A DNA stretch of 64,000 nt from a virus. How positions within the stretch are numbered: the stretch's first letter is position 1; each line of letters begins with the position of its first letter. Where the stretch lies: positions 1 through 64,000 of IMG/VR virus record IMGVR_UViG_3300025030_000050, one strand, 5' to 3'. The notes under the pieces are model-generated. The model saw only the letters and a program-made list of their open reading frames with translations. It had not been told where the DNA came from and did no database searches. Of this stretch, positions 2,438 to 50,411 are shown piece after piece. A program made the translations under genes and the position numbers.

Positions 2438-2626
2438 ATGAAAACGATAAAGAAAGTAAGATGTGTTAACAACAGTGGTGGTCAAGAGAATTTGCTTGTA
2501 ATTGGGAAGACTTATGACGTAATTTGGGAAGACGAATTTTTATATTATATTTCTACTGATCAGATCTGGATTGGAGTTTTCTTAAAATATCGTTTTGAAG
2601 AATTGGGTGAATGTTATGGCGCGTAG
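2438..2626 (+). CDS. small SH3-like phage protein (KVRCVNN..L.IGK.Y module)
   Basis: 62-aa ORF; the same module recurs inside ORF 9836..10885. Confidence 0.55.
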   Translation: MKTIKKVRCVNNSGGQENLLVIGKTYDVIWEDEFLYYISTDQIWIGVFLKYRFEELGECYGA

Positions 2627-3434
2627 AAAATTAACAGAAGAAGAGAAAAATGCCAAGTTCCAGAAAAGTATTGAAGAAAGACAAGCTTTCGATATTGCTG
2701 AAATGAGAAAAATGTATATAAATACTCCAACTATTCTTTATTCTGTTGGAGAGCAAATTATTTATGGCGCTGCTCATCCTAATGCAGAAATTGTAGAAGT
2801 TTATGACGATGGCAAATTTTATAAAATCAGGGTTTGGGGCAACTATAAAGAATACCATAATACTGTTTATAGAGAAGTAATTAGAATAGTGTCTTGGAAT
2901 GATATTGAAAAGTTTAGGACAAAAGAACAAAATGACGATATCGAAATTTTTACACAAGACGATGAATTACAATTAAGTTATTTTCAAACTACAATGAGAA
3001 CTATATTTGGGAAAGTATATCATTTTGGACTTGATATGAATCCAGAATACCAAAGAGGCAATGTCTGGAATTTAGAAGATAAACGCAAATTAATTGATTC
3101 TATTTTTAAAAATATCGACATAGGAAAATTTGTTTTCGTTTATTTACCTTATGAAAAGGATTGTAAAGGCTATGAAGTATTAGATGGCAAACAAAGAATA
3201 AATGCTATTGTTGAATTTTTTGAAGACAGGTTTAGTTTTAATGGTAAGAAATATTCTGAGCTGAATTGGAGAGATCAAGGCCATTTCGAACATTACGGCA
3301 TTAGTGTTGCTGAAATCAAAAATGCAACTCCAAAACAGAAACTACTGTATTTCTTAAAGCTAAATACAGGTGGCAGACTTGTAGATCCGAAGCATTTAGA
3401 ATATGTTCAAAAACTTTACGATATGGAAGGCTGA
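2616..3434 (+). CDS. DUF262 (ParB/Srx-like, GmrS-type) domain protein
   Basis: PEYQRGNVW and VLDGKQR motifs; ATG at 2616 preferred over the track start. Confidence 0.8.
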   Translation: MARRKLTEEEKNAKFQKSIEERQAFDIAEMRKMYINTPTILYSVGEQIIYGAAHPNAEIVEVYDDGKFYKIRVWGNYKEYHNTVYREVIRIVSWNDIEKFRTKEQNDDIEIFTQDDELQLSYFQTTMRTIFGKVYHFGLDMNPEYQRGNVWNLEDKRKLIDSIFKNIDIGKFVFVYLPYEKDCKGYEVLDGKQRINAIVEFFEDRFSFNGKKYSELNWRDQGHFEHYGISVAEIKNATPKQKLLYFLKLNTGGRLVDPKHLEYVQKLYDMEG

Positions 3435-12420: not shown

Positions 12421-13299
12421 ATGCCAAGAAAACCTAAAGATTTAAGTGAATTTATAGGGAAGAAGTTTAATTCTTTAACGATATTAAGTTCATATATTGA
12501 TGAAAATTATGCTAATAATCGTCAAATGTTTATTTGTGAATGTGATTGTAAGAACAAAACGATATCTAAAGTAAGGCCACAAGATTTAATAAATGGGAAA
12601 ATTAAATCTTGTGGGTGTTTGGCTAATAAAAATAGAGAAAGTTATATTGGCAAAAAATTTGGACGATTAGTTATTGAAGAACAAATAAAAGGACAATATT
12701 TCTTGACGAAGTGTGATTGTGGGAATACTAAAATATTTTGTTTAGATTCTTTGAGATATGGTAATGTAAAATCTTGTGGTTGTTCCAGGGGAACACACAA
12801 ACTTTCTTCTCATAAATTATATGGAGTTTGGAAAGGAATTAAAGAAAGATGTTATTATGACAAAAATATAAATTATGTAAATTATGGTGAAAGAGGAATT
12901 AGGGTTTGTGAAGAATGGCATGATTTTCAATGTTTTTACAATTGGTGTATTGATAATGGATGGGAAGAAGGGCTACAAATAGATAGAGAAAATAATGACG
13001 GGAATTATGAACCATTGAATTGTAGATTTATAACTCATATGGAAAACCAGTGGAATACTAAATTATTGAGAAAGAATAATAAAACTGGTTATAGGGGAGT
13101 TTTTCAAAATACTGCTATGATTTTTAATTATTTGGCTTATGTTTCATTTAAAGGTAAAAGATATGATATTGGGTATTATGAAAATCCTATTATAGCGGCA
13201 ATATCACGGGACTTGTTTTGTATTAAAAATGATATTACTTTGCCATTAAATTTTAATTGGTATGATGTAAAAATAAGAGATGGTTGGATTTATTTTTAA
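12421..13299 (+). mobile_element. free-standing HNH homing endonuclease with AP2-like C-terminus
   Basis: CECDC/KSCGC repeats, YGERGIRVCEEW, IDRENNDGNYEPLNCRF, NKTGYRGV. Confidence 0.85.
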
Positions 13300-23092: not shown

Positions 23093-26000
23093 ATGTTAAC
23101 AAAAAAAATAAATAACTTTTGTCATCTTCATACCCATAATATGTTTAGCTTGCTCGATGGAATGGGGAGTTCTGATCAGTGGGCAGAACAAGCAAAAAAT
23201 TTAGGCTTTAAATATCTGGCAATTACAAATCACTCAAATATTGATGGATTGATTAAACATCAACTGTCTTGTGAAAAATATAAAATAAGCTCAATCCTAG
23301 GTGTAGAATTTTATATTGTTCCAAATCCAGAAATAAAAGAAAAAGGAGATAAGAGAGGACATTTAACGGTTTGGATTAAGGACGAAATAGGCTTCCAGAA
23401 CGTGTGTAAAATGCTTAGTAGGGCTAATTTATATTTTTTCTATCATAGACCTAGAATAGGCTACGATATGTTTTTAGAACACTGTCAAGGCTTGTGTGTT
23501 GGGACTGCTTGTTCTGCTTCGTTTTTGCATTTAGAAAATGGAATAGATTTTTTAAAAGATATTCATCAAAAGATTGGGTCGGATCTATATCTTGAAGTAA
23601 TGCCTCACAATTATGAAGATCAATTTAAAACAAACAAACTCTGTCTTAGTCTGAACAAAGAACTAGATATTAAATTAATTGCGACACAAGATGCCCATTA
23701 TATTTTAAAAGAAGATTGGGAATCTCATGATGTATTGCTTGCCTGCCAAACTAAAAAGAAAATGAGTGACCCAGATAGGTGGCAGTTTAATGGCAAAGAT
23801 TTTTATCTTTGTGAACCAAAATATTATAAACAAAAATTTATTTCTCAAAATATACTTAGTCAAGAAGAAATAAATCAGGCAATGCAAAATACGATTGAAG
23901 TTGCTGAGAAATGTAAAGATTTTAAAATTAAAAAGAAAAAAATTATTTTGCCTATTCCTCCTCAATTTGAAGGGAAAGATGAAGAAGAAATAATTAGACA
24001 ATTATGCGATATCGGATTTAAAGATAAGTTTGAAACAGTTACTGATGAATATAAGAATAGATTTGAATACGAACTGTCTGTAATTAAAGATTTTGAAGTT
24101 ATAAAATATTTTCTTATTGTTTATGATTTAGTAAATTGGTGTAAGAAAAATAATATTTTGACTGGACCAGGGAGAGGAAGTAGCGCGGGTTGCTTGATTA
24201 GTTATTTGCTTGGTATTACAAAGGTAGATCCTATAAAATATGGTCTTTTATTTGAACGGTTTCTGAACCCAGGCAGAAAAGGCGCGATGCCTGACGTGGA
24301 TCTGGACTTCGAAGACATTAAACGAAATCAAGTAGTCACGTATTTAAAAGATATTTATGGACAAAATAATATAGCAGGCATTTCTACGTTTTTAAAAATA
24401 GAAGATAAAGGTGCTGTTAAAGAAGTTTCAAGGGCATTTGATGTCCCATTAGTTGATGCTGAAAAATTTACTAAAGTAATTGTTGATACAGTTGAGAATG
24501 GGTTATTGACTGAAGAAGGCCGGGGTTTTAATCAAAAATACCCACAAGTAGTTAAACATGTTTTAAAATTAAAAGGAACATATAAATCATATGGGAGACA
24601 TGCTTCAGCTTCATTAGTTAGCCCTGTAGATTTGATGTTGGGGACACGTACTGCTCTTTCAGAAAGAAATGACCAATTAGTAGCTTCCTTTGATGGTAAT
24701 GACTGTGAATATCAAGGGTTGGTTAAACTTGATATCTTGGGTTTGAGCACATTAAGTGTTATTTCAATGTGTTTGGAATTGATTAAACAAAATCATGATA
24801 AAAATATAAATCTGGAGAAATTAAATTTAGAAGATAAAGTAATTTATAAAGAACTTTCTAAAGGACATACTGTAGGATGTTTCCAAGTATCAGCTTGGGC
24901 GTTATCGAATCTTATTAAAGAGATGGGTGTTTCTAATATAAAACAAATTTCTGATGCGGTTGCTGCTGTACGCCCTGGAGCTTTTAATTCAGGTGCAACA
25001 GCAAGGTATATTGAAAGAAAACGTGGTAAAAAATGGGATAAAAAACACCCAATATATGAAGAAATTACGAAAGAAACTTTTGGTGTTGTTTTATTCCAAG
25101 AACAAGTAATTCAGATTATTAATAAAATTGCTGGGTTATCTTTAACTGTTGGTGATAAAATTCGTAAAATAATCGCCAAGAAGCGTGATATAAAAGAATT
25201 CGAACAGTACAAAGATATTTTTGTAAAAGGGTGTTTAGAACAAAAGACATTTGATGAAAGAGAAGCTTTGGAATTTTGGCATGAGCTTGAATACCATTCG
25301 GATTATTCTTTTAATTTATCACATTCTCTATCATATTCAATAGTTACGTACTGGACTGCTTGGTTAAGACAATATTATCCAAGCGAATTTATTTGTGCAG
25401 CTCTTACTTTTGGAGGAGAAAGTGAAAAATATCACTTAATTCAAGAAACACAACGTCTTAATTTAGTTATTGTTCCACCTAAAATAAATACGTCAGATGT
25501 GCAGAATTGGGTAGTTAAGGGAAAAAGGTTGTATGTACCTTTCAAAGAGTGTAAGGGAATCGGGCCTAAAGCATTAGAAACAATAGAAAAATATAAAAAT
25601 TCAGGTAAAGCCGGTTTTTTCACAGATGATAAACCCGTCATAAAAGGAAAGTTAAAAACAATCCTTGACGATATAGGCGCATTTGATGAGTCATTGCCGG
25701 ACTCAATTGATGATTATTTTGATATAGGTGTTTCATTAAATCCCGAATTTAAATATAAGAAATTATTTAAATTATTTAAAGACGCAAAAAATTATAAAAT
25801 AAACGATTTGTTGAGTGGAGACGTTATTAATGAATATTTTGGTAGGGAAATTCAGAGTAAAATATCGCCAACCAAGGGGTTGATCAGTTGTAGTGAATGC
25901 GGCTTAAGATCTAAATGTGAAAAACCTGAAACAACTAAGCTTGGAAATTATAATATTTTAATTGTTAACGAATATCCGAACTGGAAAGACGTTGAAAATA

Positions 26001-26389
26001 ACAATTATTTATTTAAAGAACTTAATAAGTACGGATTCCAAAGCGATGATTTTTTTGTCACAAACCTTGTCAAATGTAGTGGCAGCAAGCCCGGTCATAA
26101 AGAAGGTCAGATTTGTGGTAATAAATGGCTGAGACAAGAAATTGAAAATATTAAACCATTTATTGTCTTGACATTAGGTGCAAAAAATGTTAAGTTCTTT
26201 ACAGGTGATGAACAAGGGGTGGTTAGAAGGTCAGGAACCTGTGAGTGGAATGAAGAATATGGTTGTTTCATGTTTTATTCTATTTCACCAAGCCTGGCCC
26301 TGTGGCAACCAGAAAATTTCAAAAAGTTGTTTAAGGAAAGTATTAAAAAGTTTGCTGATAAAGTCATAGATTTGGGAGGGTTCAAATGA
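23093..26389 (+). CDS. dnaE: DNA polymerase III alpha (family C) fused to a C-terminal family-4 UDG-like domain
   Basis: PHP HLHTH..SLLDG, GPGRGSSAG, FERFLNP.R..MPDVDLD, KLDILGL, FQEQ, YSFNLSH; C-terminal CSEC...TNLVKC...C..WLRQEI..IKP..VLTLG. Confidence 0.92.
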   Translation: MLTKKINNFCHLHTHNMFSLLDGMGSSDQWAEQAKNLGFKYLAITNHSNIDGLIKHQLSCEKYKISSILGVEFYIVPNPEIKEKGDKRGHLTVWIKDEIGFQNVCKMLSRANLYFFYHRPRIGYDMFLEHCQGLCVGTACSASFLHLENGIDFLKDIHQKIGSDLYLEVMPHNYEDQFKTNKLCLSLNKELDIKLIATQDAHYILKEDWESHDVLLACQTKKKMSDPDRWQFNGKDFYLCEPKYYKQKFISQNILSQEEINQAMQNTIEVAEKCKDFKIKKKKIILPIPPQFEGKDEEEIIRQLCDIGFKDKFETVTDEYKNRFEYELSVIKDFEVIKYFLIVYDLVNWCKKNNILTGPGRGSSAGCLISYLLGITKVDPIKYGLLFERFLNPGRKGAMPDVDLDFEDIKRNQVVTYLKDIYGQNNIAGISTFLKIEDKGAVKEVSRAFDVPLVDAEKFTKVIVDTVENGLLTEEGRGFNQKYPQVVKHVLKLKGTYKSYGRHASASLVSPVDLMLGTRTALSERNDQLVASFDGNDCEYQGLVKLDILGLSTLSVISMCLELIKQNHDKNINLEKLNLEDKVIYKELSKGHTVGCFQVSAWALSNLIKEMGVSNIKQISDAVAAVRPGAFNSGATARYIERKRGKKWDKKHPIYEEITKETFGVVLFQEQVIQIINKIAGLSLTVGDKIRKIIAKKRDIKEFEQYKDIFVKGCLEQKTFDEREALEFWHELEYHSDYSFNLSHSLSYSIVTYWTAWLRQYYPSEFICAALTFGGESEKYHLIQETQRLNLVIVPPKINTSDVQNWVVKGKRLYVPFKECKGIGPKALETIEKYKNSGKAGFFTDDKPVIKGKLKTILDDIGAFDESLPDSIDDYFDIGVSLNPEFKYKKLFKLFKDAKNYKINDLLSGDVINEYFGREIQSKISPTKGLISCSECGLRSKCEKPETTKLGNYNILIVNEYPNWKDVENNNYLFKELNKYGFQSDDFFVTNLVKCSGSKPGHKEGQICGNKWLRQEIENIKPFIVLTLGAKNVKFFTGDEQGVVRRSGTCEWNEEYGCFMFYSISPSLALWQPENFKKLFKESIKKFADKVIDLGGFK

Positions 26390-26709
26390 TTGGAACTGAA
26401 ATTTTTGATATTAATAAAATGCCGGAAAGACGGTTACACGCTAAGGCGGAGATAGTCCTTCAAGACCATCAACCAGTTGGTGCGGCCATAATGGAGATAA
26501 AAAGAAATATGGCGTTTAATTTGGTCCAAAAAATTTTAGAAGACAAGTCATTCTTTTGGAGTAACAGTAGGAAAATAGAAGGATATCCAGTGCTCGAATA
26601 TGGTGTTGATTGTATTGTTATGACAGAAGATGAATTTTTAAAAGTAAAACGCGATTCTTTTGAAAAAGGCATTAAACACGCATTAGGTTTTATGCCTATT
26701 GACAGATAG
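26386..26709 (+). CDS. hypothetical protein
   Basis: ATGA overlap with the dnaE stop, GGAGG RBS. Confidence 0.6.
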   Translation: MIGTEIFDINKMPERRLHAKAEIVLQDHQPVGAAIMEIKRNMAFNLVQKILEDKSFFWSNSRKIEGYPVLEYGVDCIVMTEDEFLKVKRDSFEKGIKHALGFMPIDR

Positions 26710-37532: not shown

Positions 37533-38621
37533 ATGGCAAAACCTAAGAAAACAGAAGACATAGCCGAACAAATTAAAGAAAGTATTGACTCTCCCGTAAA
37601 TGAAGGAATTGGATTATTCGATAGAGGGACAATATCAACCGGTTCTACTTTACTTGATTTGGAGATTTCCGGAAATAGGACTAAAAATGGAGGTTTGCCA
37701 GGAGGGATTATTGTAGAGATATTTGGACCGAGTGGAGCGGGGAAAACAAGTATTTTGGCAGAAATTTGCGCAAGTGCTAAAGCAAATGGGGGAGACTTTT
37801 TTGTGGCAGACCCAGAAGCAAGACTAGACAAAGAGTATGCAAGGATTTATGGGCTGTCTATCGATAAGACAAGGTATAGTAGACCAGATACAGTACCAGA
37901 AATGTTTGAGAAAATTTGGAATTGGGAGCCAAAGCCAGAAAACCCCAACGCTATTTGTGTATTTGCGGGTGATTCATTAGCTGCTTTGTCAACTTCTATG
38001 GAAATGGAAGATGAAGATAAAATGGGAATGCGGAGAGCAAAAGAATTTAGCGAATGGATGCGCAAAACATGTAGAAAAATTGCGAATAAAAATTGGCTTG
38101 TAGTTCTTACAAATCAAGAAAGGGAATCACCAACAGGCGTGACTACCCCTGGAGGAAAAGCTGTTCCTTACTATAGTTCTTTAAGGATTCGTGTCTCTCC
38201 TCAGATGACTAATAAATATATAACTTCCACAAAAACAATTAATGGCAAAACTTTAGAAAAAAGAAAAGGCGTTAGATCAAAGGCTCAAATTAAGAAAAGC
38301 AGTATTGGAGATCCTTATGGAGAAGCCCCGTATTCATTAATTTTTAACTATGGGATGGATGATTTAAGAGAAAATTTGCAATTTCTAAAAGATTTTATCG
38401 AACCAGAAATAGATGCGACAACTGGGAAGAAAAAATCTGTCCAATATCCTTGTATCGATAACACTTTTGGGACTATTGACAAGGCGATTGAATACGTTGA
38501 AAGTAAAGGGTATGAAAAACAAATTAAACAGATGGTTGTTGATAAATGGCATGAAATTCAAGATTCGTTTAAGACAGAAAGGAAGACAAGGGAAAGAAGA
38601 CAAAGGAAAGAGTTTGAATAA
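37533..38621 (+). CDS. recA: RecA/UvsX-like recombinase
   Basis: ISTGS..LD, GGLPGG.IVEIFGPSGAGKT, DSLAAL, TNQER, TTPGGKAV.YYSSLR. Confidence 0.92.
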   Translation: MAKPKKTEDIAEQIKESIDSPVNEGIGLFDRGTISTGSTLLDLEISGNRTKNGGLPGGIIVEIFGPSGAGKTSILAEICASAKANGGDFFVADPEARLDKEYARIYGLSIDKTRYSRPDTVPEMFEKIWNWEPKPENPNAICVFAGDSLAALSTSMEMEDEDKMGMRRAKEFSEWMRKTCRKIANKNWLVVLTNQERESPTGVTTPGGKAVPYYSSLRIRVSPQMTNKYITSTKTINGKTLEKRKGVRSKAQIKKSSIGDPYGEAPYSLIFNYGMDDLRENLQFLKDFIEPEIDATTGKKKSVQYPCIDNTFGTIDKAIEYVESKGYEKQIKQMVVDKWHEIQDSFKTERKTRERRQRKEFE

Positions 38622-38622
38622 A

Positions 38623-39492
38623 ATGGACAAACCAATTATTATCGTTGATTCAAGCTATTGGTTTTATCAGCTATTGTTTAAAATGCCGTCTTTATCTTAT
38701 GAAGATCAACAGACTGGGATTATATTTGGAATGATATCTAAAATAATCCAACACGCTAAAAAACTCGATTCTAATAAATTTATTTTTTGTTTTGATTCAA
38801 AGAAGAATAAAAGAAAGAAGATATTTCCAGAATATAAAGAAAAAAGAAACAAGCAAGATCGGACGCCAGAAGAAATACTTGCATTCAAGAATTCATTTGC
38901 TCAACTAAGTGAATTTAGAATGCAAGTATTGCCTAACCTGGGAATTAAAAATAACTTCATACAAACCGGTCATGAAAGTGATGATATTATTGCTTCTATT
39001 ATTTTTGAAAATCCTGGTCAAGATTTTGTAATTATAAGTTCTGATGAAGATCTTTACCAACTTTTGTCTGACAAGGTAAGTATTTATAATTCAAAAACAG
39101 ACAAATTTTATACCAGGAAAAAATTTATTGATGAATATGGGATAAACCCCTCAGATTGGGTGTTGGTAAAAAAGCTTGGAGGTTGCAAGAGCGATTGTGT
39201 ACCAGGGCCAGCAGGTGGTTATAAAACTAAAACGGCGTTAAAATTTATTAAAAATGAATTGCCAGAAACAAATGCTGTTTATAAAATTTTTACTTCTGAA
39301 GCGGGAAGAGAAATATCAATCAGAAATGAGAGATTGGTGAAGCTTCCACTTGAAGGCACACAAGTATTTGAAATAAACACGGACTGGAAATTAGATATCA
39401 AAGATTTCGTCTATATTTGTGATAAGTACGATTTCAGGTCTTTTTTAAATGGAGATGCTTATGGAAAGTGGCAAACCATTATGTGTGAATAA
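38623..39492 (+). CDS. 5'-3' exonuclease / flap endonuclease (T4 RNase H-like)
   Basis: IVDSS, RKKIFPEYK..R, ESDDII, SSDEDL.QL, GCKSDCVPG. Confidence 0.9.
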   Translation: MDKPIIIVDSSYWFYQLLFKMPSLSYEDQQTGIIFGMISKIIQHAKKLDSNKFIFCFDSKKNKRKKIFPEYKEKRNKQDRTPEEILAFKNSFAQLSEFRMQVLPNLGIKNNFIQTGHESDDIIASIIFENPGQDFVIISSDEDLYQLLSDKVSIYNSKTDKFYTRKKFIDEYGINPSDWVLVKKLGGCKSDCVPGPAGGYKTKTALKFIKNELPETNAVYKIFTSEAGREISIRNERLVKLPLEGTQVFEINTDWKLDIKDFVYICDKYDFRSFLNGDAYGKWQTIMCE

Positions 39493-39646
39493 AGAAAAAT
39501 ACTGGTATTTATTCCACTACGAAGAATGCCCAGTTTGTGGAGCTTCTGAGATATGGAAAGAAAGAATATATGATAAGCCAAAACCAAAAGATTGTGTAGA
39601 TAGAAAAGTTTTTACATATCTAAATTGTTATTGCATAGGAAAATAA

Positions 39647-40225
39647 ATGATTATAGGAATTGATCTTTCTCTTAGAAGCACGGCTATTTGTGCTTTAGAC
39701 TGTCAAAATAATTTAATCTATTTTGAACTTATAAAGTCTAAACCAAATGAAGGAAAGACTAAAAAAGAACAAAATAATGGCCTGCCTATTTTAAATGATG
39801 AAGCCTTGCTTATTTATAATGCAAAATCAATAATTGCTTTTATAAAAATGGCCGAAATGGGGTGGGGTATTGATGGCATTGCAATTGAGGGCTTGAGCTT
39901 TGGCTCTATTTCAGGGAATAAGGACATTATACAAGGCAACTTTTGGTATGTGCGTACAATGCTTTATCAGACTTTTACCAAAATCCCAATTGGCATAATT
40001 CCGGTATCGGCATGGCGCAGTAAAGCCGTAACTAAAGAAGAAAAAGCAAGAGCGAAAGAAAAATATGTCAAGGATTATTTAAAGCATGTAGTTGTAGACG
40101 CTTTGCCAGAAGATGTGAGAACTGAGTTTAAAACCTATATTGATAAAAACGAATACAGTCAAGAAAGTTTATTTGATTTAGCAGATTCATATTTTTTATC
40201 TAAATACAGAAACAGTTTAAGTTAA
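39647..40225 (+). CDS. RuvC-like Holliday junction resolvase
   Basis: IIGIDLSLRSTA, IAIEG, DLADS. Confidence 0.8.
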   Translation: MIIGIDLSLRSTAICALDCQNNLIYFELIKSKPNEGKTKKEQNNGLPILNDEALLIYNAKSIIAFIKMAEMGWGIDGIAIEGLSFGSISGNKDIIQGNFWYVRTMLYQTFTKIPIGIIPVSAWRSKAVTKEEKARAKEKYVKDYLKHVVVDALPEDVRTEFKTYIDKNEYSQESLFDLADSYFLSKYRNSLS

Positions 40226-40434
40226 ATTATGGAAACACAAATAGATTTAAAAATTACAAATCAAATGAAGAAAGAAGAAGTGAAAATACTTTTCCTTGTA
40301 TTGTGGGATATTTTAGAATTATCTGAATCAGGCAGGATTAATCCAAATTATAAGAATAATGAAAAATATAGGCAGTTATATTTTAAATTCGGCCATATTT
40401 TACTGGGCAATGAATGTCCAGAAAGAGAAGTCAA

Positions 40435-41664
40435 ATGTTAGAACAAATTGAGATTAAAAAATTTCAATGTCACGACAATTCTGTTATTAATCTTGCTCCA
40501 GGTGTTAATATTATTTCTGGTTCGTCAGATCATGGCAAAACAAGCGTATTTAGAGCTATTGGGCTGGTTAAAAATAACAGTCCTTCCGGATATCGTTATA
40601 AACCATGGCAGGCAAAGAAAAAAGACGTAACAATTATTGGTCTTAAGTTTGATAATGGCAAAGTAGAAAGAAGAAGATCGGATACAATTGATGAATATCT
40701 TATTCAGGCTTCAAATTGTTCAACCGACCCATTTAAAGCCATGAATAGGCAAGTGCCAGAACAAATATCTGAATTTTTAAATTTAAATGAATATAATTTT
40801 CAGAGTCAGCACGATCCCCATTTTTTCATTTCTAAAACGCCGGGCGAAAGGGCAAAGCTTTTAAATGAAGTAAGTGGATTAGAAATTATAGACAAATCTA
40901 CTTCTAAAATAAATTCGTTAATTAAAGAAAATAATTCACTTTTAGAAAAATCAAAAGAAGAAATAAAAAATCTTGGCAACAAAAAAGAAAAAATAGAATT
41001 TGTTGTAAAAGCCGATGCTATTTTAACTGATATAGAAGAAGGGGTTGAAAAAGAAAATAAATTAACTGCAAACAATAATATATTATCAAATTATTGTCAG
41101 AGTATAGAAAAGCTACAAACAGTAATTGATGACAATAAAGAGTTCTTGCTAATCAAAGCCAGTTTTGATTTAATTCAATCATTAATTAATAAAAACGAGT
41201 TTTTAACAACAGCTAATGAAAAAATTATTCAATATGTTGATAAAATAACAGTTCTTGCCAACATAATTGATGATAAAAAAGAATTTTTAAAAATAAAAGA
41301 CTTGACAAATAAGCTAGAATCTGATATAGATAATTACAAAGCCTCTTATTTAGATAATGAAAAGATTAAAAAATATTGCCTTGATTTAAAAGAAAATGAA
41401 GACAATGTTACTTCAGTTAAAGAATGGCTAGGGGTAAAAACATTGTATACCTCTAGCATTCAATATAAAGCCCGCTACGACGAATTAGAGGTAAAACAAG
41501 CTACCCTACTAGCTTATATTGAAAAAGCCCTTACAATTGATTCTAGGGCCATAGAATTGGATAATAAAGTAACGGAGTTGAAAAGAAAGAAAGAACAGTA
41601 TATGAAAAAGTTCGGCATTTGCCCATTTTGTGGCAGAGGTGATGGCGATGAAAGCAAATTATGA
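40435..41664 (+). CDS. SbcC/Rad50-like ATPase, N-terminal half
   Basis: IKKFQCH, Walker A GSSDHGKT, Q-loop, coiled coil, terminal CPFCG hook; no Walker B. Confidence 0.85.
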   Translation: MLEQIEIKKFQCHDNSVINLAPGVNIISGSSDHGKTSVFRAIGLVKNNSPSGYRYKPWQAKKKDVTIIGLKFDNGKVERRRSDTIDEYLIQASNCSTDPFKAMNRQVPEQISEFLNLNEYNFQSQHDPHFFISKTPGERAKLLNEVSGLEIIDKSTSKINSLIKENNSLLEKSKEEIKNLGNKKEKIEFVVKADAILTDIEEGVEKENKLTANNNILSNYCQSIEKLQTVIDDNKEFLLIKASFDLIQSLINKNEFLTTANEKIIQYVDKITVLANIIDDKKEFLKIKDLTNKLESDIDNYKASYLDNEKIKKYCLDLKENEDNVTSVKEWLGVKTLYTSSIQYKARYDELEVKQATLLAYIEKALTIDSRAIELDNKVTELKRKKEQYMKKFGICPFCGRGDGDESKL

Positions 41665-42074
41665 TAACCTTCTTCTCAAACTAAAAACAATTCCAGTTCT
41701 GTGCGGTCGTTGCTATAACTATGTAGATAAAGTCTATCAAGCAACTTGTGAAGAAAAGCCAGAAGAATTTGACAATTTTATTCACGGCACATATTATTGT
41801 CCCGATTGTGGGGCAATGGTAGTTGCTGGTCTTCCTCATCCAGACGTATGTGAAAAGTGTTTAAATGAGAAAAAGGATTAAGTGTTGGGGTTAAATATGC
41901 ATGAAAAATGTATAAAGTGTAAATATAGAGAACATTATGTGAGTAATTCAAACCAAGATCATATCAATTTGTGTATAGTTTTACCATATGAAGAAGATGA
42001 GGAAATAACGACTTGGCTTGATGTTGAAGATTTTGATTCATCAGATTGTTGTTATTTCAAAGAGGTTAGGAATA

Positions 42075-42542
42075 TTGAGTAAGACTAAACTAAAATCAAT
42101 TGATATTGAAATAGCAGTCGCGGCTTATTTAAATTTCAGGCATAATTTAATTGTGCCTAATGTGTGTTGGGGCATTCATATTCATGAATGTGATTTGCTT
42201 GTCATTACTAAAGCTGGTTACGCATGGGAAGTTGAAATTAAAGTTAGTAAAGCCGATTTAATAAAAGACACAGATAAGAGGCATGGGCATAAAGACAATC
42301 GAATTAAAGACCTTTATTTTGCCATGCCTGAAGAAATGAAAGATTGCATAGACCATGTTCCAGAACGAGCGGGTATTATTTTAGTTAAAAACAATTTGAG
42401 ATGCCAGACCATTAAAAAGCCTATTTCAAATCGAAATGCAGTCCCATTTAGTGATAGAGAAAAATATAAAGTTGCGAGACTGGGTGCGTTACGTATTTGG
42501 GGACTGAAAAGAAAAATTATTAAGAAAGATAAAGAGGATTAG
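42075..42542 (+). CDS. PD-(D/E)xK nuclease-fold protein (MmcB-like)
   Basis: HECDLL...EVEIKVSKADL..D, YFAMP, AGII. Confidence 0.7.
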   Translation: MSKTKLKSIDIEIAVAAYLNFRHNLIVPNVCWGIHIHECDLLVITKAGYAWEVEIKVSKADLIKDTDKRHGHKDNRIKDLYFAMPEEMKDCIDHVPERAGIILVKNNLRCQTIKKPISNRNAVPFSDREKYKVARLGALRIWGLKRKIIKKDKED

Positions 42543-43475
42543 ATGAAGATGTTATGTTTTGGTGATATTCATGCCAGATCAAATAACCCCAGATATAGGG
42601 TTGATGAATATTGGCAAACTTTATTGAATAAAATAGAATTTGGGCTAAATCTTGGGCTTGCTAATAATTGTGAATATGTTGCCATGCCTGGAGATATCTT
42701 TGAAACACATAGAGTTTCAAATGCTGTTATTAGCAAAATGATAGATACAATGCTTAAATATGGATATTTAAACATGACTTTTTTAGGCGTAGTTGGCAAT
42801 CATGACGCACCATTTCATAATTTGAAATTGGAAAATTGTCCACTAAATGTTTTACAATCAGCACAAGTATTGGAAATTTTAGATAAAAACCCATATAACG
42901 ACGATACTGCAAGTGATGGCAAGATTAATTTTTACGGTGCAAGTTGGGGTCAAACAATTCCTGAAATTAAAGATAAAGCAGCTTTTAATATTTTATTAAT
43001 TCATAAAATGATAATTGGTGAAGACAAGATTTGGGAAGGGCAAGAACATTATGTCAGTGCTCGTACATTACTCGCTAAAAATGGATTCGATTTAATTATA
43101 TCTGGGGATAATCATAATTGTTTTACTTCTGAATATTCAAAAAAAGTTTTACTGAATATGGGGAGTTTGGGTCGTATGACGGCTGGACAATTAGAGCATA
43201 AGCCGAAAGTTGCTATTTATGATACTAGCAATAGAACATATGAATTGTTTGAAGTTCCAATTCAACCTTCTTCAGTTGTTTTCAATTTAGATGAGATCAG
43301 ACATAAAAAACAAATAGCTGAAGAAAATGCTAAAATAAAAGAATATGTTAATTTTCTTAGTAGCAATGAAGAAAAGCAGGATTGGAATTATGTAAAGAAT
43401 TTAAATAATTTTATGCTCAATAATGACATAAGAGACGAGATTAAAGAAATTGTCTTACAGACATTGGAGGATTGA
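42543..43475 (+). CDS. SbcD/Mre11-like nuclease
   Basis: GDIH, GDIFE, GNHD, SGDNH, NMGSL.R. Confidence 0.88.
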   Translation: MKMLCFGDIHARSNNPRYRVDEYWQTLLNKIEFGLNLGLANNCEYVAMPGDIFETHRVSNAVISKMIDTMLKYGYLNMTFLGVVGNHDAPFHNLKLENCPLNVLQSAQVLEILDKNPYNDDTASDGKINFYGASWGQTIPEIKDKAAFNILLIHKMIIGEDKIWEGQEHYVSARTLLAKNGFDLIISGDNHNCFTSEYSKKVLLNMGSLGRMTAGQLEHKPKVAIYDTSNRTYELFEVPIQPSSVVFNLDEIRHKKQIAEENAKIKEYVNFLSSNEEKQDWNYVKNLNNFMLNNDIRDEIKEIVLQTLED

Positions 43476-46097: not shown

Positions 46098-46772
46098 ATG
46101 GAAGTAAAGGTTTTAGGTGAATATGGTTATGAATTTGCAAGATATGGATTTTCTCTAAGTTTTAAAGAGAGGTCTATTAAACCAACTGATTGGATGCTTT
46201 GCCCTAAAAATTGTCACAAAGAGTGCAGCGATTGTGATATTTTTGAAAGGCAGCAACATTATGATAAAGTTTTAATTAAAAATGCAAATAGAGAAGGGGG
46301 CCACAATAAATTTTTAGAACACATATCTGTTTGGCTTGATGTTGAAGCTCCGTTAGAACTATGGAAGCAAATCGACACCTATCGGGTCGGTCCAAGTAAA
46401 CAGTCAGAGTCAACAATGCATACTTTAGATAAAAGAGATATGGCTGTTGAAGATTTTGATTTAGACGAAAAAGAACTAGAAAAAGAATGTATTTTAGACC
46501 CAACTGACATTGGGGACAAAAACCCTAGCTTAAAGCATATTTTAGGTTTATATTTGCAATATCTTAATTTTATGCCGTCAAGAATTAAGTCGAAACTATT
46601 ACCTCAAGGTTACAAACAAAGGCGTGAAATTGTTTTAAACTACAAAGTATTGCGACATATTATCAACCAAAGAAAGGGACATAAATTACCTGAATGGCAA
46701 TTTTTTATTAAATCAATTTATGAGCAAATTGAAAGACCAGAACTATTGCCCGAATACCCATATGAAAGATAA
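46098..46772 (+). CDS. divergent ThyX-like (FAD-dependent thymidylate synthase fold) protein
   Basis: GH.KFLE, Q.DTYR.....QSES, LLPQG, NY..LRHI..QR..H.LPEW. Confidence 0.7.
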   Translation: MEVKVLGEYGYEFARYGFSLSFKERSIKPTDWMLCPKNCHKECSDCDIFERQQHYDKVLIKNANREGGHNKFLEHISVWLDVEAPLELWKQIDTYRVGPSKQSESTMHTLDKRDMAVEDFDLDEKELEKECILDPTDIGDKNPSLKHILGLYLQYLNFMPSRIKSKLLPQGYKQRREIVLNYKVLRHIINQRKGHKLPEWQFFIKSIYEQIERPELLPEYPYER

Positions 46773-46939
46773 ATATTATAAAAATATGACATTCTGTGTC
46801 TTTGAAGAATGTACGTTCTATCAAGATTGTGGTAGGAGATTAACAGAAAAAGATAAAAAAGATGCCATTGAATGGTTTGGGTCTGACAAAGCCATAATTC
46901 AAATTTATCTTGATAAACCATATTGTTTTGAAGGAGAAG

Positions 46940-47530
46940 ATGAAAATATACTGTGATTATGACAGCACTCTTAATACCTTAGCTCAGGCTTGGACAGATT
47001 GGGCAAATAGGCTTTATCATACTAATATTACTACAAAAGACATTTTGCACTGGAATTGGATGGGAGAAAGATTCGGAGGAAGTGTTAATGATTTTTGGAA
47101 AAATGCCGATATTTATAAGAATGATGTTGTCACCGTACTTCCTGGTTCAATTCCTTTTATAAAAACCTTACAATCTTTATTTGGGAAAGAAAATGTATTT
47201 ATTGTAACCCATTCATGGCCGGGAACAGAAGTAGAAAAAGACAAACAAATTAGAAGAAAATTTGGTTTTATAAATATTATTCATGAAGCAGATAAATTTA
47301 GAGTAACAAATGATGGGATTTTAATTGACGACAGAGCCTGTACAGTAGGCTATCATTGTCAGATAAATAAAATGAGAGGAATTGTATTTAACAATAACAA
47401 CAATTACGGTTGGTCAACAAAAGAATTTATTGAAGATTTTGAAACAGTACAGACCTTAGTTAGCTTTAAACAAAGCTATGAAGATACTTTCGAATATTTG
47501 GTTAAATTATATAAAGATGGTGTTTATTAA
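46940..47530 (+). CDS. 5'(3')-deoxyribonucleotidase (HAD, NT5C-like)
   Basis: CDYDSTL, IVT, K...W-type segment, LIDD. Confidence 0.8.
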   Translation: MKIYCDYDSTLNTLAQAWTDWANRLYHTNITTKDILHWNWMGERFGGSVNDFWKNADIYKNDVVTVLPGSIPFIKTLQSLFGKENVFIVTHSWPGTEVEKDKQIRRKFGFINIIHEADKFRVTNDGILIDDRACTVGYHCQINKMRGIVFNNNNNYGWSTKEFIEDFETVQTLVSFKQSYEDTFEYLVKLYKDGVY

Positions 47531-49970: not shown

Positions 49971-50411
49971 ATGACAGTGTGGGTCAATGTTTTGAGAGAA
50001 GACAAGAGTTTGCCAATGCCAGAATTTAATTATGAAGGAGACGCAGGTTTTGACTTAAGAAGCGCAGAAGATGTTGTTATTTATCCAAATATGCCGTTAC
50101 CTGCTAAGATCTCTACTGGAATGAGATTTAGTATCCCTCTAGGATATTGCATGGAAGTTCATTCAAGAAGTGGATTAGCGGCTAAAAATCACTTGTTTGT
50201 AACCAATGGCCCTGGCATAATTGATAGTGTCTATACAGGCATTGTTTACGTATTATTAACTAATTTGGGCGAAGATCCTGTTCATATCAAACACGGTCAA
50301 AGGATTGCACAAGGCATTATTAAGAAATTGCCAGAAGTTATTTTTAAAGAAGTTGATACTATTAAAGAAACTAAAAGGGGTGATAAAGGATTCGGAAGTA
50401 GCGGTATTTAA
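49971..50411 (+). CDS. dut: trimeric dUTPase
   Basis: AGFDL, SRSGLA, GIIDS.Y.G, RIAQ, RGDKGFGSSG. Confidence 0.95.
   Translation: MTVWVNVLREDKSLPMPEFNYEGDAGFDLRSAEDVVIYPNMPLPAKISTGMRFSIPLGYCMEVHSRSGLAAKNHLFVTNGPGIIDSVYTGIVYVLLTNLGEDPVHIKHGQRIAQGIIKKLPEVIFKEVDTIKETKRGDKGFGSSGI

What the first reader, a model, noticed from the sequence alone, without database searches (positions are those of the whole stretch)
25880..26389. DnaE polymerase fused to a degenerate Fe-S uracil-DNA-glycosylase domain
Seen: where DnaE normally has OB-fold and C-terminal domains there is a family-4 UDG-like sequence. All four cluster-type cysteines are kept (CSEC, VKC, QIC), but GEAPG reads NEYPN and HP(A/S) reads SPS. 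The PHP domain keeps most His/Asp/Glu metal ligands. Known: SPO1-type PolA carries a UDG-like domain, and vaccinia uses UDG as a processivity subunit. Inference: a catalytically altered UDG fold acting as a built-in processivity or base-reading module on a family C polymerase. No clamp gene is seen in this window.
Basis: partly seen in the sequence, partly recalled or inferred. Interest (0 to 1): 0.7.

Follow-up and report, generated by a model that had tools for sequence, protein, structure and literature searches.

The report
Phage DnaE polymerase with dead-UDG tail
A phage DnaE-type replicative DNA polymerase carries an iron-sulfur uracil-DNA-glycosylase fold, with its catalytic residues lost, in place of the usual C-terminal domains; the fusion is real, but it belongs to a widespread phage family noted in 2014, most of whose members keep intact glycosylase motifs.

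Summary
ORF 23093-26389 (+, 1098 aa) is a complete DnaE: PHP with all nine metal ligands, palm, fingers and (HhH)2. Its last ~170 residues (25880-26386) are a family-4 UDG fold (Pfam UDG 41.9 bits; PDB 1ui0 E 2.6e-11; AF2 pLDDT 88, TM 0.75 to T. thermophilus UDG). The four cluster cysteines are kept. GEAPG reads NEYPN, HPA reads SPS, and the 8-residue Phe loop after motif A is deleted.

It is not an artefact: the same protein occurs on 30 contigs.

It is also not a new architecture. Timinskas et al. (2014) reported DnaE with OB and CTD replaced by UDG. I confirmed such tails in plasmid DnaEs and found matches under annotated DnaE genes in SSU5-like phages.

A search of all protein representatives shows a large metagenomic DnaE-UDG family. 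Most members keep canonical GEAPG, the Phe loop and HPA/HPS. The window's protein sits in a derived clade that lost them; at least 3-4 independent losses are needed, and the cysteines are almost always retained.

Best reading: an ancestral glycosylase, by analogy with PolA-UDG one that excised template uracil ahead of the polymerase, reduced here to a non-catalytic Fe-S DNA-binding module. The processivity role is untested. The beta-binding domain and a clamp-motif-like YFxF are retained.

Moderate interest; new member of a known kind.

The parts
23093..26389 (+). DnaE-UDG gene, 1098 aa (P0001), stop included
   Evidence: Full-length AF2 model has pLDDT 90.5 and pTM 0.81. Foldseek matches Taq Pol III alpha 2hpi/3e0d, Mtb DnaE1 7pu7/5lew and E. 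coli alpha 2hnh.
23123..23602 (+). PHP domain (res 11-170 by Pfam) with all nine metal ligands H13 H15 D22 H47 E72 H90 C140 D200 H202; D200 and H202 lie beyond the Pfam match, so this span covers seven of the nine
   Evidence: No DnaQ-like exonuclease was found in the record.
23990..24742 (+). Pol III alpha palm/NTPase core (res 300-550) with catalytic D401, D403, D547
24749..25243 (+). Fingers domain (res 553-717)
25466..25603 (+). (HhH)2 / beta-binding domain core (res 792-837); Pfam score is below the cut-off
   Evidence: 22.8 bits against 25.6. The KGIGPK and IGAFD elements are conserved in the family.
25604..25879 (+). Helical linker (res 838-929) between HhH and UDG
25709..25726 (+). DDYFDI: this protein's copy of the conserved [YLF]-F-x-[FIY] motif, a candidate clamp-binding motif
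   Evidence: F in 34 of 46 and F at +2 in 30 of 46. Its position is analogous to the E. coli alpha internal clamp-binding motif (own knowledge).
25880..26386 (+). Family-4 UDG fold (res 930-1098) replacing OB and CTD
25889..25900 (+). C933-x2-C936, first two Fe-S ligand cysteines
25967..25981 (+). Motif A, degenerate: NEYPN where the family has GEAPG
25982..26011 (+). Site of the 8-residue deletion that removes the GxGFVGxAG (Phe) loop
26063..26077 (+). N991 to C995 (NLVKC): conserved Asn and the third cluster cysteine
26114..26116 (+). C1008, fourth cluster cysteine
26285..26293 (+). Motif B, degenerate: SPS where the family has HPA/HPS

Best explanation
This is the replicative DNA polymerase of a large tailed phage of at least 113 kb. 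It has a DnaE-type core (PHP, palm, fingers, (HhH)2). The PHP domain keeps all nine metal ligands and probably proofreads. The OB fold and tau-binding tail of cellular DnaE have been replaced by a family-4, 4Fe-4S uracil-DNA-glycosylase fold.

The fusion is ancient and defines a large phage family. In most members the UDG motifs are canonical. [quoted passage not shown]

The window's lineage has destroyed the uracil pocket and catalytic residues: GEAPG became NEYPN, the Phe loop was deleted, and His became Ser. The Fe-S scaffold is kept. Here the domain most likely no longer cuts uracil and serves as a non-catalytic DNA-binding module on the template or duplex. It would take over the DNA-holding role of the lost OB fold and may add to processivity.

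Shown here: the architecture, the fold, the motif states, the derived position of the loss, and retention of the cysteines. Inferred: Fe-S occupancy, loss of activity, the DNA-binding role, and the read-ahead role in canonical relatives.
For: Architecture and fold.

Family size. The tail search over 1.84 billion representatives gave 509 hits at E<=1e-3 and 172 at E<=1e-10. Most of the top 150 that exceed 1000 aa carry a full DnaE core plus the C-terminal tail.

The family profile is a bona fide family-4 UDG: 4zbx E 5e-41, 1ui0 E 8e-39, and it also hits the PolA-UDG structure 9qhs.

Motif census of 139 tails: GEAPG in 77, with Gly-to-Ala and similar variants making up many of the rest. His of motif B is present in 112 of 139 (HPA/HPS in 106). 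The four cysteines are present in 136 of 139, and each cysteine column is conserved in 137-138 of 139.

The window row lacks the Phe loop.

A tree built on the DnaE core alone places P0001 in a supported (96) clade of five no-His proteins, nested among His-bearing ones. At least 3-4 independent losses are required. Further degenerate lineages that still keep the four cysteines are L013, L015, L017 and L019/20.

The tail is still constrained in the degenerate clade: 74.6% identity between P0001 and P0003, against 82.7% in the core.

An intein sits exactly after GEAPG in the canonical relative P0004, which marks that motif as a conserved functional site.

Analogy: SP15-like PolA-UDG excises dU ahead of the fork, N4-like PolA has an inactivated UDG, and mpox E4 contacts the template ahead of the polymerase (PMC13697223).

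The phage encodes a dUTPase and no second UDG.
Against: There is no biochemical evidence. Glu of motif A (E960), Asn991 and Pro1066 are kept. MUG/TDG-type glycosylases work without the motif-B His (own knowledge), so residual or altered activity cannot be excluded.

I could not read the model coordinates, so the position of the UDG domain relative to the template path is unknown.

Tail/core identity ratios are lower in degenerate pairs (0.82) than in canonical pairs (0.92). This means relaxed constraint and is compatible with a partly vestigial domain.

SSU5-type tails have lost most of the cysteines as well, so the Fe-S cluster is not indispensable for whatever the tail does.
Confidence: 0.6

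Rival explanations
1. The tail is still a base-flipping enzyme or reader with altered specificity. It might act on a mismatch, a damaged base or a phage-specific modified pyrimidine, like MUG/TDG-type enzymes that lack the motif-B histidine.
For: E960, N991 and P1066 are retained. The fold is predicted with high confidence. The ThyX-like gene at 46098-46772 lacks the RHR motif and sits next to an NT5C nucleotidase. That leaves room for unusual pyrimidine metabolism.
Against: Three separate pocket elements are changed at once: motif A glycines and alanine, the Phe loop deletion, and His to Ser. Different degenerate lineages show different, non-convergent replacements (NENAN/SPF, TEYPS/SPG, SETPS/SPS, SDIPN/SPN). 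That pattern looks like decay rather than a new specificity. No hydroxymethylase or ThyA homologue is present.
Confidence: 0.17
2. The tail is mainly a protein-protein adaptor. It would replace the tau-binding CTD and couple the polymerase to the phage helicase, primase or SSB, or to a host factor, rather than binding DNA.
For: It occupies the place of the OB and tau-binding domains. The phage has its own DnaB-like helicase, a primase-like protein and a gp32-like SSB, but no clamp loader. The linker-plus-tail module has been exchanged between divergent cores in P0002.
Against: There is no direct evidence. UDG folds fused to or bound by A- and B-family polymerases contact DNA (PMC13697223).
Confidence: 0.13
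3. The tail is a decaying remnant with only a folding or stability role and no functional contribution to replication.
For: Constraint is relaxed relative to canonical members. SSU5-type tails have decayed further.
Against: The tail is kept at full length in every lineage examined. The cysteines are nearly invariant (136 of 139 tails keep all four). Identity is 40-75% within the degenerate clade. No truncated DnaE ending after the HhH domain was seen among close relatives.
Confidence: 0.08
4. The fusion is an assembly or gene-calling artefact.
For: None.
Against: The reading frame is uninterrupted. The identical protein occurs on 30 contigs from independent sources. More than 80 representatives of different 50%-identity clusters show the same architecture.
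Confidence: 0.01

Closest known systems
DnaE variants in which OB and CTD are replaced by an archaeal-type UDG domain (Timinskas et al. 2014, NAR 42:1393, PMC3919608). I found the same architecture in three plasmid DnaEs, and matching tails in SSU5-like phages and phage-plasmids (SSU5, Cyrano, Klebsiella phage-plasmids, RHEph10, Pseudomonas phage nickie).
   Same: PHP-Pol3-(HhH)2-UDG architecture. The elements are about 100-120 kb, and the three complete plasmids checked lack their own beta clamp. The catalytic motifs are degenerate there too.
   Different: The proteobacterial phage-plasmid tails have also lost most or all of the four cysteines. They are too divergent to be found by tblastn with the window's tail. 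The window's tail keeps the complete Cys4 signature.
Canonical-motif DnaE-UDG polymerases of uncultured phages (for example P0020, P0033, P0060; loci L012, L014, L023). I found no paper describing them.
   Same: Same family and same domain order. Core identity is 35-45% and tail identity 30-40%. The four cysteines and the linker motif are shared.
   Different: They keep GEAPG, the GxGFVGxAG loop and HPA/HPS. Several have a clamp-loader-like AAA+ gene next to the polymerase. The window's genome has none.
PolA-UDG fusion polymerases: SP15-like and SPO1-like (active UDG) and N4-like (inactivated UDG). Missoury et al. 2026 (PMC13697223); Kazlauskas & Venclovas 2011 (PMC3201878).
   Same: A family-4-type UDG fold is fused to a phage replicative polymerase, with both active and catalytically dead lineages. 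The family profile hits the PolA-UDG structure 9qhs. The window's tail hits the UDG domains of Clostridium phage PolA.
   Different: The polymerase family differs (A versus C), and the UDG is N-terminal there but C-terminal here. This is therefore an independent fusion.
Family-4 UDG (T. thermophilus UDGA 1ui0, S. tokodaii 4zbx, TM0511) and UdgX
   Same: Same fold, with TM 0.70-0.76. The four Fe-S cysteines and the Asn of TN(V)VKC are present.
   Different: Motif A, the Phe loop and the motif-B His are lost. Scores are far below the TIGR00758 and Arch_udg cut-offs. The UdgX R-loop is absent.
Poxvirus D4/E4 UDG as a polymerase holoenzyme subunit
   Same: A UDG fold physically coupled to a replicative polymerase and to its processivity (PMC3201878, PMC4889955, PMC13697223).
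   Different: It is a separate subunit, belongs to family 1, is catalytically active, pairs with a B-family polymerase and needs the A20/A22 bridge.

Membership tests
C-family DNA polymerase, DnaE type | PHP domain | tested here: met
   PF02811 at 94 bits. All nine metal ligands are present.
C-family DNA polymerase, DnaE type | Pol3 palm with catalytic aspartates, plus a fingers domain | tested here: met
   PF07733 at 230 bits and PF17657 at 136 bits. D401, D403 and D547 are invariant. TIGR00594 scores 691 bits, above its cut-off. The fold matches 2hpi, 3e0d and 7pu7.
C-family DNA polymerase, DnaE type | (HhH)2 beta-binding domain | tested here: inconclusive
   PF14579 scores 22.8 bits, below the 25.6 cut-off. 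The GIG and IGAFD elements are conserved, and the structural alignment to Taq alpha spans about 966 columns.
C-family DNA polymerase, DnaE type (DnaE1 layout) | C-terminal OB fold and tau-binding CTD | tested here: not met
   No OB or CTD hit was found. Residues 930-1098 are a UDG fold. All DnaE1/2/3 equivalog models score below their cut-offs.
Family-4 uracil-DNA glycosylase | alpha/beta UDG fold | tested here: met
   PF03167 scores 41.9 bits against 24.3. Foldseek gives target TM 0.70-0.76 to 1ui1, 4zby and 1vk2.
Family-4 uracil-DNA glycosylase | Four cysteines that ligate the 4Fe-4S cluster | tested here: met
   C933, C936, C995 and C1008 align with the cysteines of 1ui0 and 4zbx. Cluster occupancy cannot be tested here.
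Family-4 uracil-DNA glycosylase | Motif A, GE(A/G)PG | tested here: not met
   The protein reads NEYPN.
Family-4 uracil-DNA glycosylase | GxPFVGxAG loop with the conserved Phe (uracil stacking, from own knowledge) | tested here: not met
   An 8-residue deletion removes it.
Family-4 uracil-DNA glycosylase | Motif B, HP(A/S) | tested here: not met
   The protein reads SPS. Ser aligns with the His of 1ui0.
Family-4 uracil-DNA glycosylase | Curated family score (TIGR00758 / NF040953) | tested here: not met
   27-32 bits against cut-offs of 125 and 250.
Family-4 uracil-DNA glycosylase | Uracil excision activity | not testable with these tools
   Needs an enzyme assay.
DnaE-UDG fusion polymerases (Timinskas 2014 architecture) | PHP-Pol3-(HhH)2 followed by PF03167 in place of OB and CTD | tested here: met
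   The same Pfam architecture is found in Moellerella pW1-b, Sinorhizobium pLM21S1, an A. baumannii 108-kb plasmid, and P0004, P0005 and P0009.
UdgX | GEQPG motif and KRRIH R-loop with the covalent-linking His | tested here: not met
   The alignment shows no such insertion or motif. TIGR03914 scores 27-32 bits against a cut-off of 190.

The most novel reading that the evidence does not exclude
C-family phage polymerases recruited an Fe-S UDG as a template read-ahead module. After repeated loss of catalysis, the Fe-S fold persists as an intrinsic DNA-gripping element, possibly redox- or lesion-sensing. That element would let the polymerase replicate a genome of more than 100 kb without a phage clamp loader. 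In the few loci I could inspect, dead-UDG forms lack the clamp-loader gene that sits next to several canonical forms.
Probability: 0.15. Interest if true: 0.7.

Novelty: new member of a known kind. Interest (0 to 1): 0.42.

Why it matters
UDG folds are now known to ride on A-family phage polymerases (structures published in 2026) and on B-family poxvirus polymerases. There they contact the template ahead of the active site. This gene belongs to the C-family counterpart.

That counterpart was mentioned once, in a 2014 domain census, and I found no study that has followed it up. It turns out to be a large phage family containing both apparently active and repeatedly inactivated versions. This offers a natural experiment for separating the glycosylase role of a polymerase-borne UDG from its structural role in DNA binding or processivity. 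It also offers a compact DnaE with built-in PHP proofreading for biochemical work.

For annotation, these proteins are currently labelled only 'DNA polymerase III subunit alpha'.

Tried and rejected
I could not fetch contigs of the closest relatives (P0003, P0005, P0009), so no dN/dS and no systematic gene-content comparison were possible.
- The search for related loci with the tail alignment failed because no stretch was conserved enough.
- Searches with the window tail or P0001 found no close relatives in viral contigs or genome contigs. The host remains unknown.
- tblastn of the window tail against GenBank phages and PLSDB plasmids found only PolA-UDG domains, stand-alone UDG/UdgX genes and one unannotated 8-kb fecal phage contig. 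The SSU5-type tails appeared only when the full-length protein or a plasmid tail was used as query.
- Y. pestis CO92 pMT1 has no dnaE listed in the gene table available here. I therefore used other plasmids to check the architecture reported in 2014.
- Model coordinates are not exposed to scripts. I could not measure Cys-Cys geometry or the placement of the UDG domain relative to the template channel.
- Searches of the 113-kb record were all negative for DnaN (PF00712, PF02768), gp45, clamp loader (PF13177), DnaQ (PF00929) and ThyA (PF00303). The record is estimated to be about 81% complete, so absence is not proof.
- UdgX-like covalent capture was rejected because the R-loop is absent.
- An assembly artefact was rejected.
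- The earlier-findings look-up returned only an unrelated note on tRNA-like genes.
Full report
**What is there.** The window is the first 64 kb of a 113,349-bp IMG/VR virus record, estimated to be about 81% complete. It has about 32% G+C, and its genes are packed tightly on one strand. ORF 23093-26389 (+) encodes a 1098-aa protein, P0001.

Pfam finds PHP (11-170), the Pol III alpha palm domain (300-550), fingers (553-717) and a sub-threshold HHH_6 (792-837). It also finds UDG PF03167 at 971-1084, at 41.9 bits against a gathering score of 24.3. NCBIfam places the core in the DnaE superfamily (TIGR00594, 691 bits) but below every DnaE1/2/3 equivalog cut-off. No OB fold or tau-binding domain is detected.

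**The tail is a UDG fold.**
- The last 198 residues match T. thermophilus family-4 UDG (1ui0, E 2.6e-11), S. tokodaii UDG and TM0511 by sequence alone.
- An AF2 model of residues 838-1098 has mean pLDDT 87.9. It superposes on UdgX, 1ui0/1ui1, 4zby and 1vk2 with target TM 0.70-0.76.
- The full-length model (pLDDT 90.5, pTM 0.81) matches Taq, M. tuberculosis and E. coli Pol III alpha over the core, and family-4 UDGs over the tail.

The identical protein occurs on 30 contigs from JGI, ENA and Logan, so it is not an assembly artefact.

They are C933-x2-C936, C995, C1008, NEYPN for GEAPG, and SPS for HP(A/S). Aligned against relatives, the protein also lacks 8 residues that form the GxGFVGxAG loop after motif A. 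In the aligned family-4 enzymes this is the PFVG loop, whose Phe stacks on uracil (own knowledge). It lacks 3 further residues after the third cysteine.

All nine PHP metal ligands and the three polymerase aspartates are present and conserved across 46 aligned relatives. No DnaQ-type exonuclease is found in the record. The PHP domain is therefore the likely proofreader, as in M. tuberculosis DnaE1 (own knowledge).

**The family.** I searched the tail against 1.84 billion cluster representatives. This returned 509 proteins at E<=1e-3 and 172 at E<=1e-10. Among the best 150, nearly all proteins longer than 1000 aa carry a complete DnaE core followed by this tail at the extreme C-terminus. Shorter hits are fragments or C-terminal halves, and longer ones carry inteins. 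A profile of the tails matches family-4 UDGs at E 5e-41 and also hits the PolA-UDG cryo-EM entry 9qhs.

The motif census was the surprise. Of 139 tails:
- 77 read exactly GEAPG, and many of the rest differ only by Gly-to-Ala and similar variants.
- 112 keep the His of motif B (106 read HPA or HPS).
- The Phe loop is part of the consensus.
- 136 keep all four cysteines, and each cysteine column is conserved in 137-138.

So the typical DnaE-UDG looks like an active glycosylase. The window's protein is one of a minority that does not.

**The loss is derived.** A tree built on the DnaE core alone, with tail columns excluded, puts P0001 in a supported (96) clade of five proteins that all lack the His: P0001, P0003, P0009, P0002 and P0005. 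The clade is nested among His-bearing proteins. The tree needs four changes of state, and at least three are forced by well-supported branches.

IMG/VR loci add further degenerate lineages with different replacements that still keep all four cysteines:
- SETPS/SPS in L019 and L020
- SDIPN/SPN in L017
- CEIPN/SPN in L015
- GEAPN/SPY in L013

The degenerate tails evolve somewhat faster relative to their cores than canonical tails do (identity ratio 0.82 against 0.92). They remain clearly conserved: between P0001 and P0003, identity is 74.6% in the tail and 82.7% in the core.

**Prior knowledge.** The architecture is not new. Timinskas et al. [quoted passage not shown]

I confirmed the architecture in complete 103-117-kb plasmids of Moellerella, Sinorhizobium and Acinetobacter baumannii. 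The Moellerella tail also matches under genes annotated as DNA polymerase III alpha in cultured phages. These include SSU5, Cyrano, Klebsiella phage-plasmids, RHEph10 and Pseudomonas phage nickie.

In the three plasmid DnaEs I aligned, the tails have lost the catalytic motifs and most or all of the cysteines. The window's protein is thus an intermediate state: Fe-S signature kept, catalysis lost. I found no paper describing the canonical-motif majority or testing any DnaE-UDG.

**Mechanism.** For A-family phage polymerases, Missoury et al. (2026) showed that a fused active UDG recognises dU on the template ahead of the fork. They note that N4-like PolA carries an inactivated UDG, and that the poxvirus UDG contacts the template ahead of a B-family polymerase (PMC13697223). 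Kazlauskas and Venclovas (2011) proposed a processivity role for fused UDG domains (PMC3201878).

In DnaE the replaced OB fold is the ssDNA-template-binding element (own knowledge). My reading is therefore as follows:
- Canonical DnaE-UDG enzymes probably read the template for uracil.
- In the window's clade the pocket is destroyed, and the domain survives as a non-catalytic Fe-S DNA-binding module.

This part is inference. Residual or altered activity cannot be excluded, because Glu960, Asn991 and Pro1066 remain. MUG/TDG enzymes also work without the motif-B His (own knowledge).

**On 'no clamp'.** The 113-kb record has no DnaN, no gp45 and no clamp loader. The three complete DnaE-UDG plasmids also lack DnaN.

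However, the (HhH)2 beta-binding domain is retained. A conserved [YLF]-F-x-[FIY] motif (YFDI, residues 875-878) lies in the linker, roughly where E. coli alpha has its internal clamp-binding motif. Use of the host clamp is therefore plausible, and the absence of a phage clamp says little.

One weak lead deserves mention. A clamp-loader-like AAA+ gene (PF13177) lies next to the polymerase in three canonical-motif relatives (L012, L014, L023). It is absent from all records with a degenerate tail that I could inspect, and one of those carries a remnant with stop codons. One 96.8-kb canonical record also lacks it. The sample is small and not phylogenetically independent.

**Context.** The neighbourhood is a replication and recombination module:
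- SF2 helicase
- replication initiator-like protein
- DnaB-like helicase
- primase-like protein
- RNA-ligase-like protein
- ATP-dependent DNA ligase
- gp32-like SSB
- RecA/UvsX
- FEN
- SbcCD-like pair
- dUTPase
- class II RNR

The polymerase tail is the only UDG-family sequence in the record.

**Verdict.** The gene is a new member of a known but uncharacterised architecture. What this check adds is that the fusion family is large, mostly canonical and repeatedly inactivated.

Noticed in passing
P0004 (relative, 1479 aa), residues ~1018-1331: An intein with an HNH endonuclease is inserted immediately after GEAPG of the UDG motif A (IIGEAPG|C...HN|SNEDKAGMGFIGRAG). This marks motif A as a highly conserved functional site in canonical DnaE-UDG enzymes.
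   Followed up: partly
P0008 (426 aa relative); compare phrog_4335: The protein begins with an intein C-terminal fragment followed by the DnaE 'SHAVPYS' motif, HhH and UDG. It may be the C-terminal half of a split-intein DnaE-UDG, or a truncated ORF.
   Followed up: no
P0002 (1091 aa relative): The DnaE core is only 49% identical to P0001, but the linker and UDG tail are 95% identical. This suggests recombinational exchange of the tail module between divergent polymerases, or a chimeric assembly. It is seen on 9 contigs.
   Followed up: partly
window 46098-46772 (+) and 46910-47530 (+): The ThyX-like ORF (Pfam Thy1, 26 bits) lacks the RHR of the ThyX signature and reads GPSKQSESTMH. It lies next to an NT5C-type deoxypyrimidine nucleotidase. 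There is no ThyA homologue in the record, and a dUTPase lies at 49971-50411. This may indicate unusual pyrimidine metabolism.
   Followed up: partly
L012:14563-15510, L014:8529-9464, L023:9072-9986: A clamp-loader-like AAA+ gene (PF13177) lies next to DnaE-UDG in canonical-motif relatives. It is absent from the window's genome and from the other degenerate-tail records examined. L015's record holds a remnant with two stop codons.
   Followed up: partly
window 25709-25726 (DDYFDI): A conserved [YLF]-F-x-[FIY] motif lies in the HhH-UDG linker across the family and is a candidate beta-clamp-binding motif.
   Followed up: partly
window 26386-26709 (+): A 107-aa ORF whose start overlaps the polymerase stop codon (ATGA). 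It has no Pfam hit and could be a translationally coupled partner.
   Followed up: no
window 12421-13299 (+) and G000 96023-96529 (+): An HNH homing-endonuclease-like ORF lies directly after the DnaB-like helicase gene, and an AP2-domain ORF lies elsewhere. These look like free-standing homing endonucleases in the replication module.
   Followed up: no
window 2595-3434, 715-2064, 37533-43475: The gene set (DEAD-box helicase, ParB/GmrSD_N-like protein, RecA-like recombinase, FEN, SbcCD-like pair) mirrors that annotated on Y. pestis pMT1. This hints at a very distant relationship of this low-GC phage to the SSU5/pMT1-type group.
   Followed up: no
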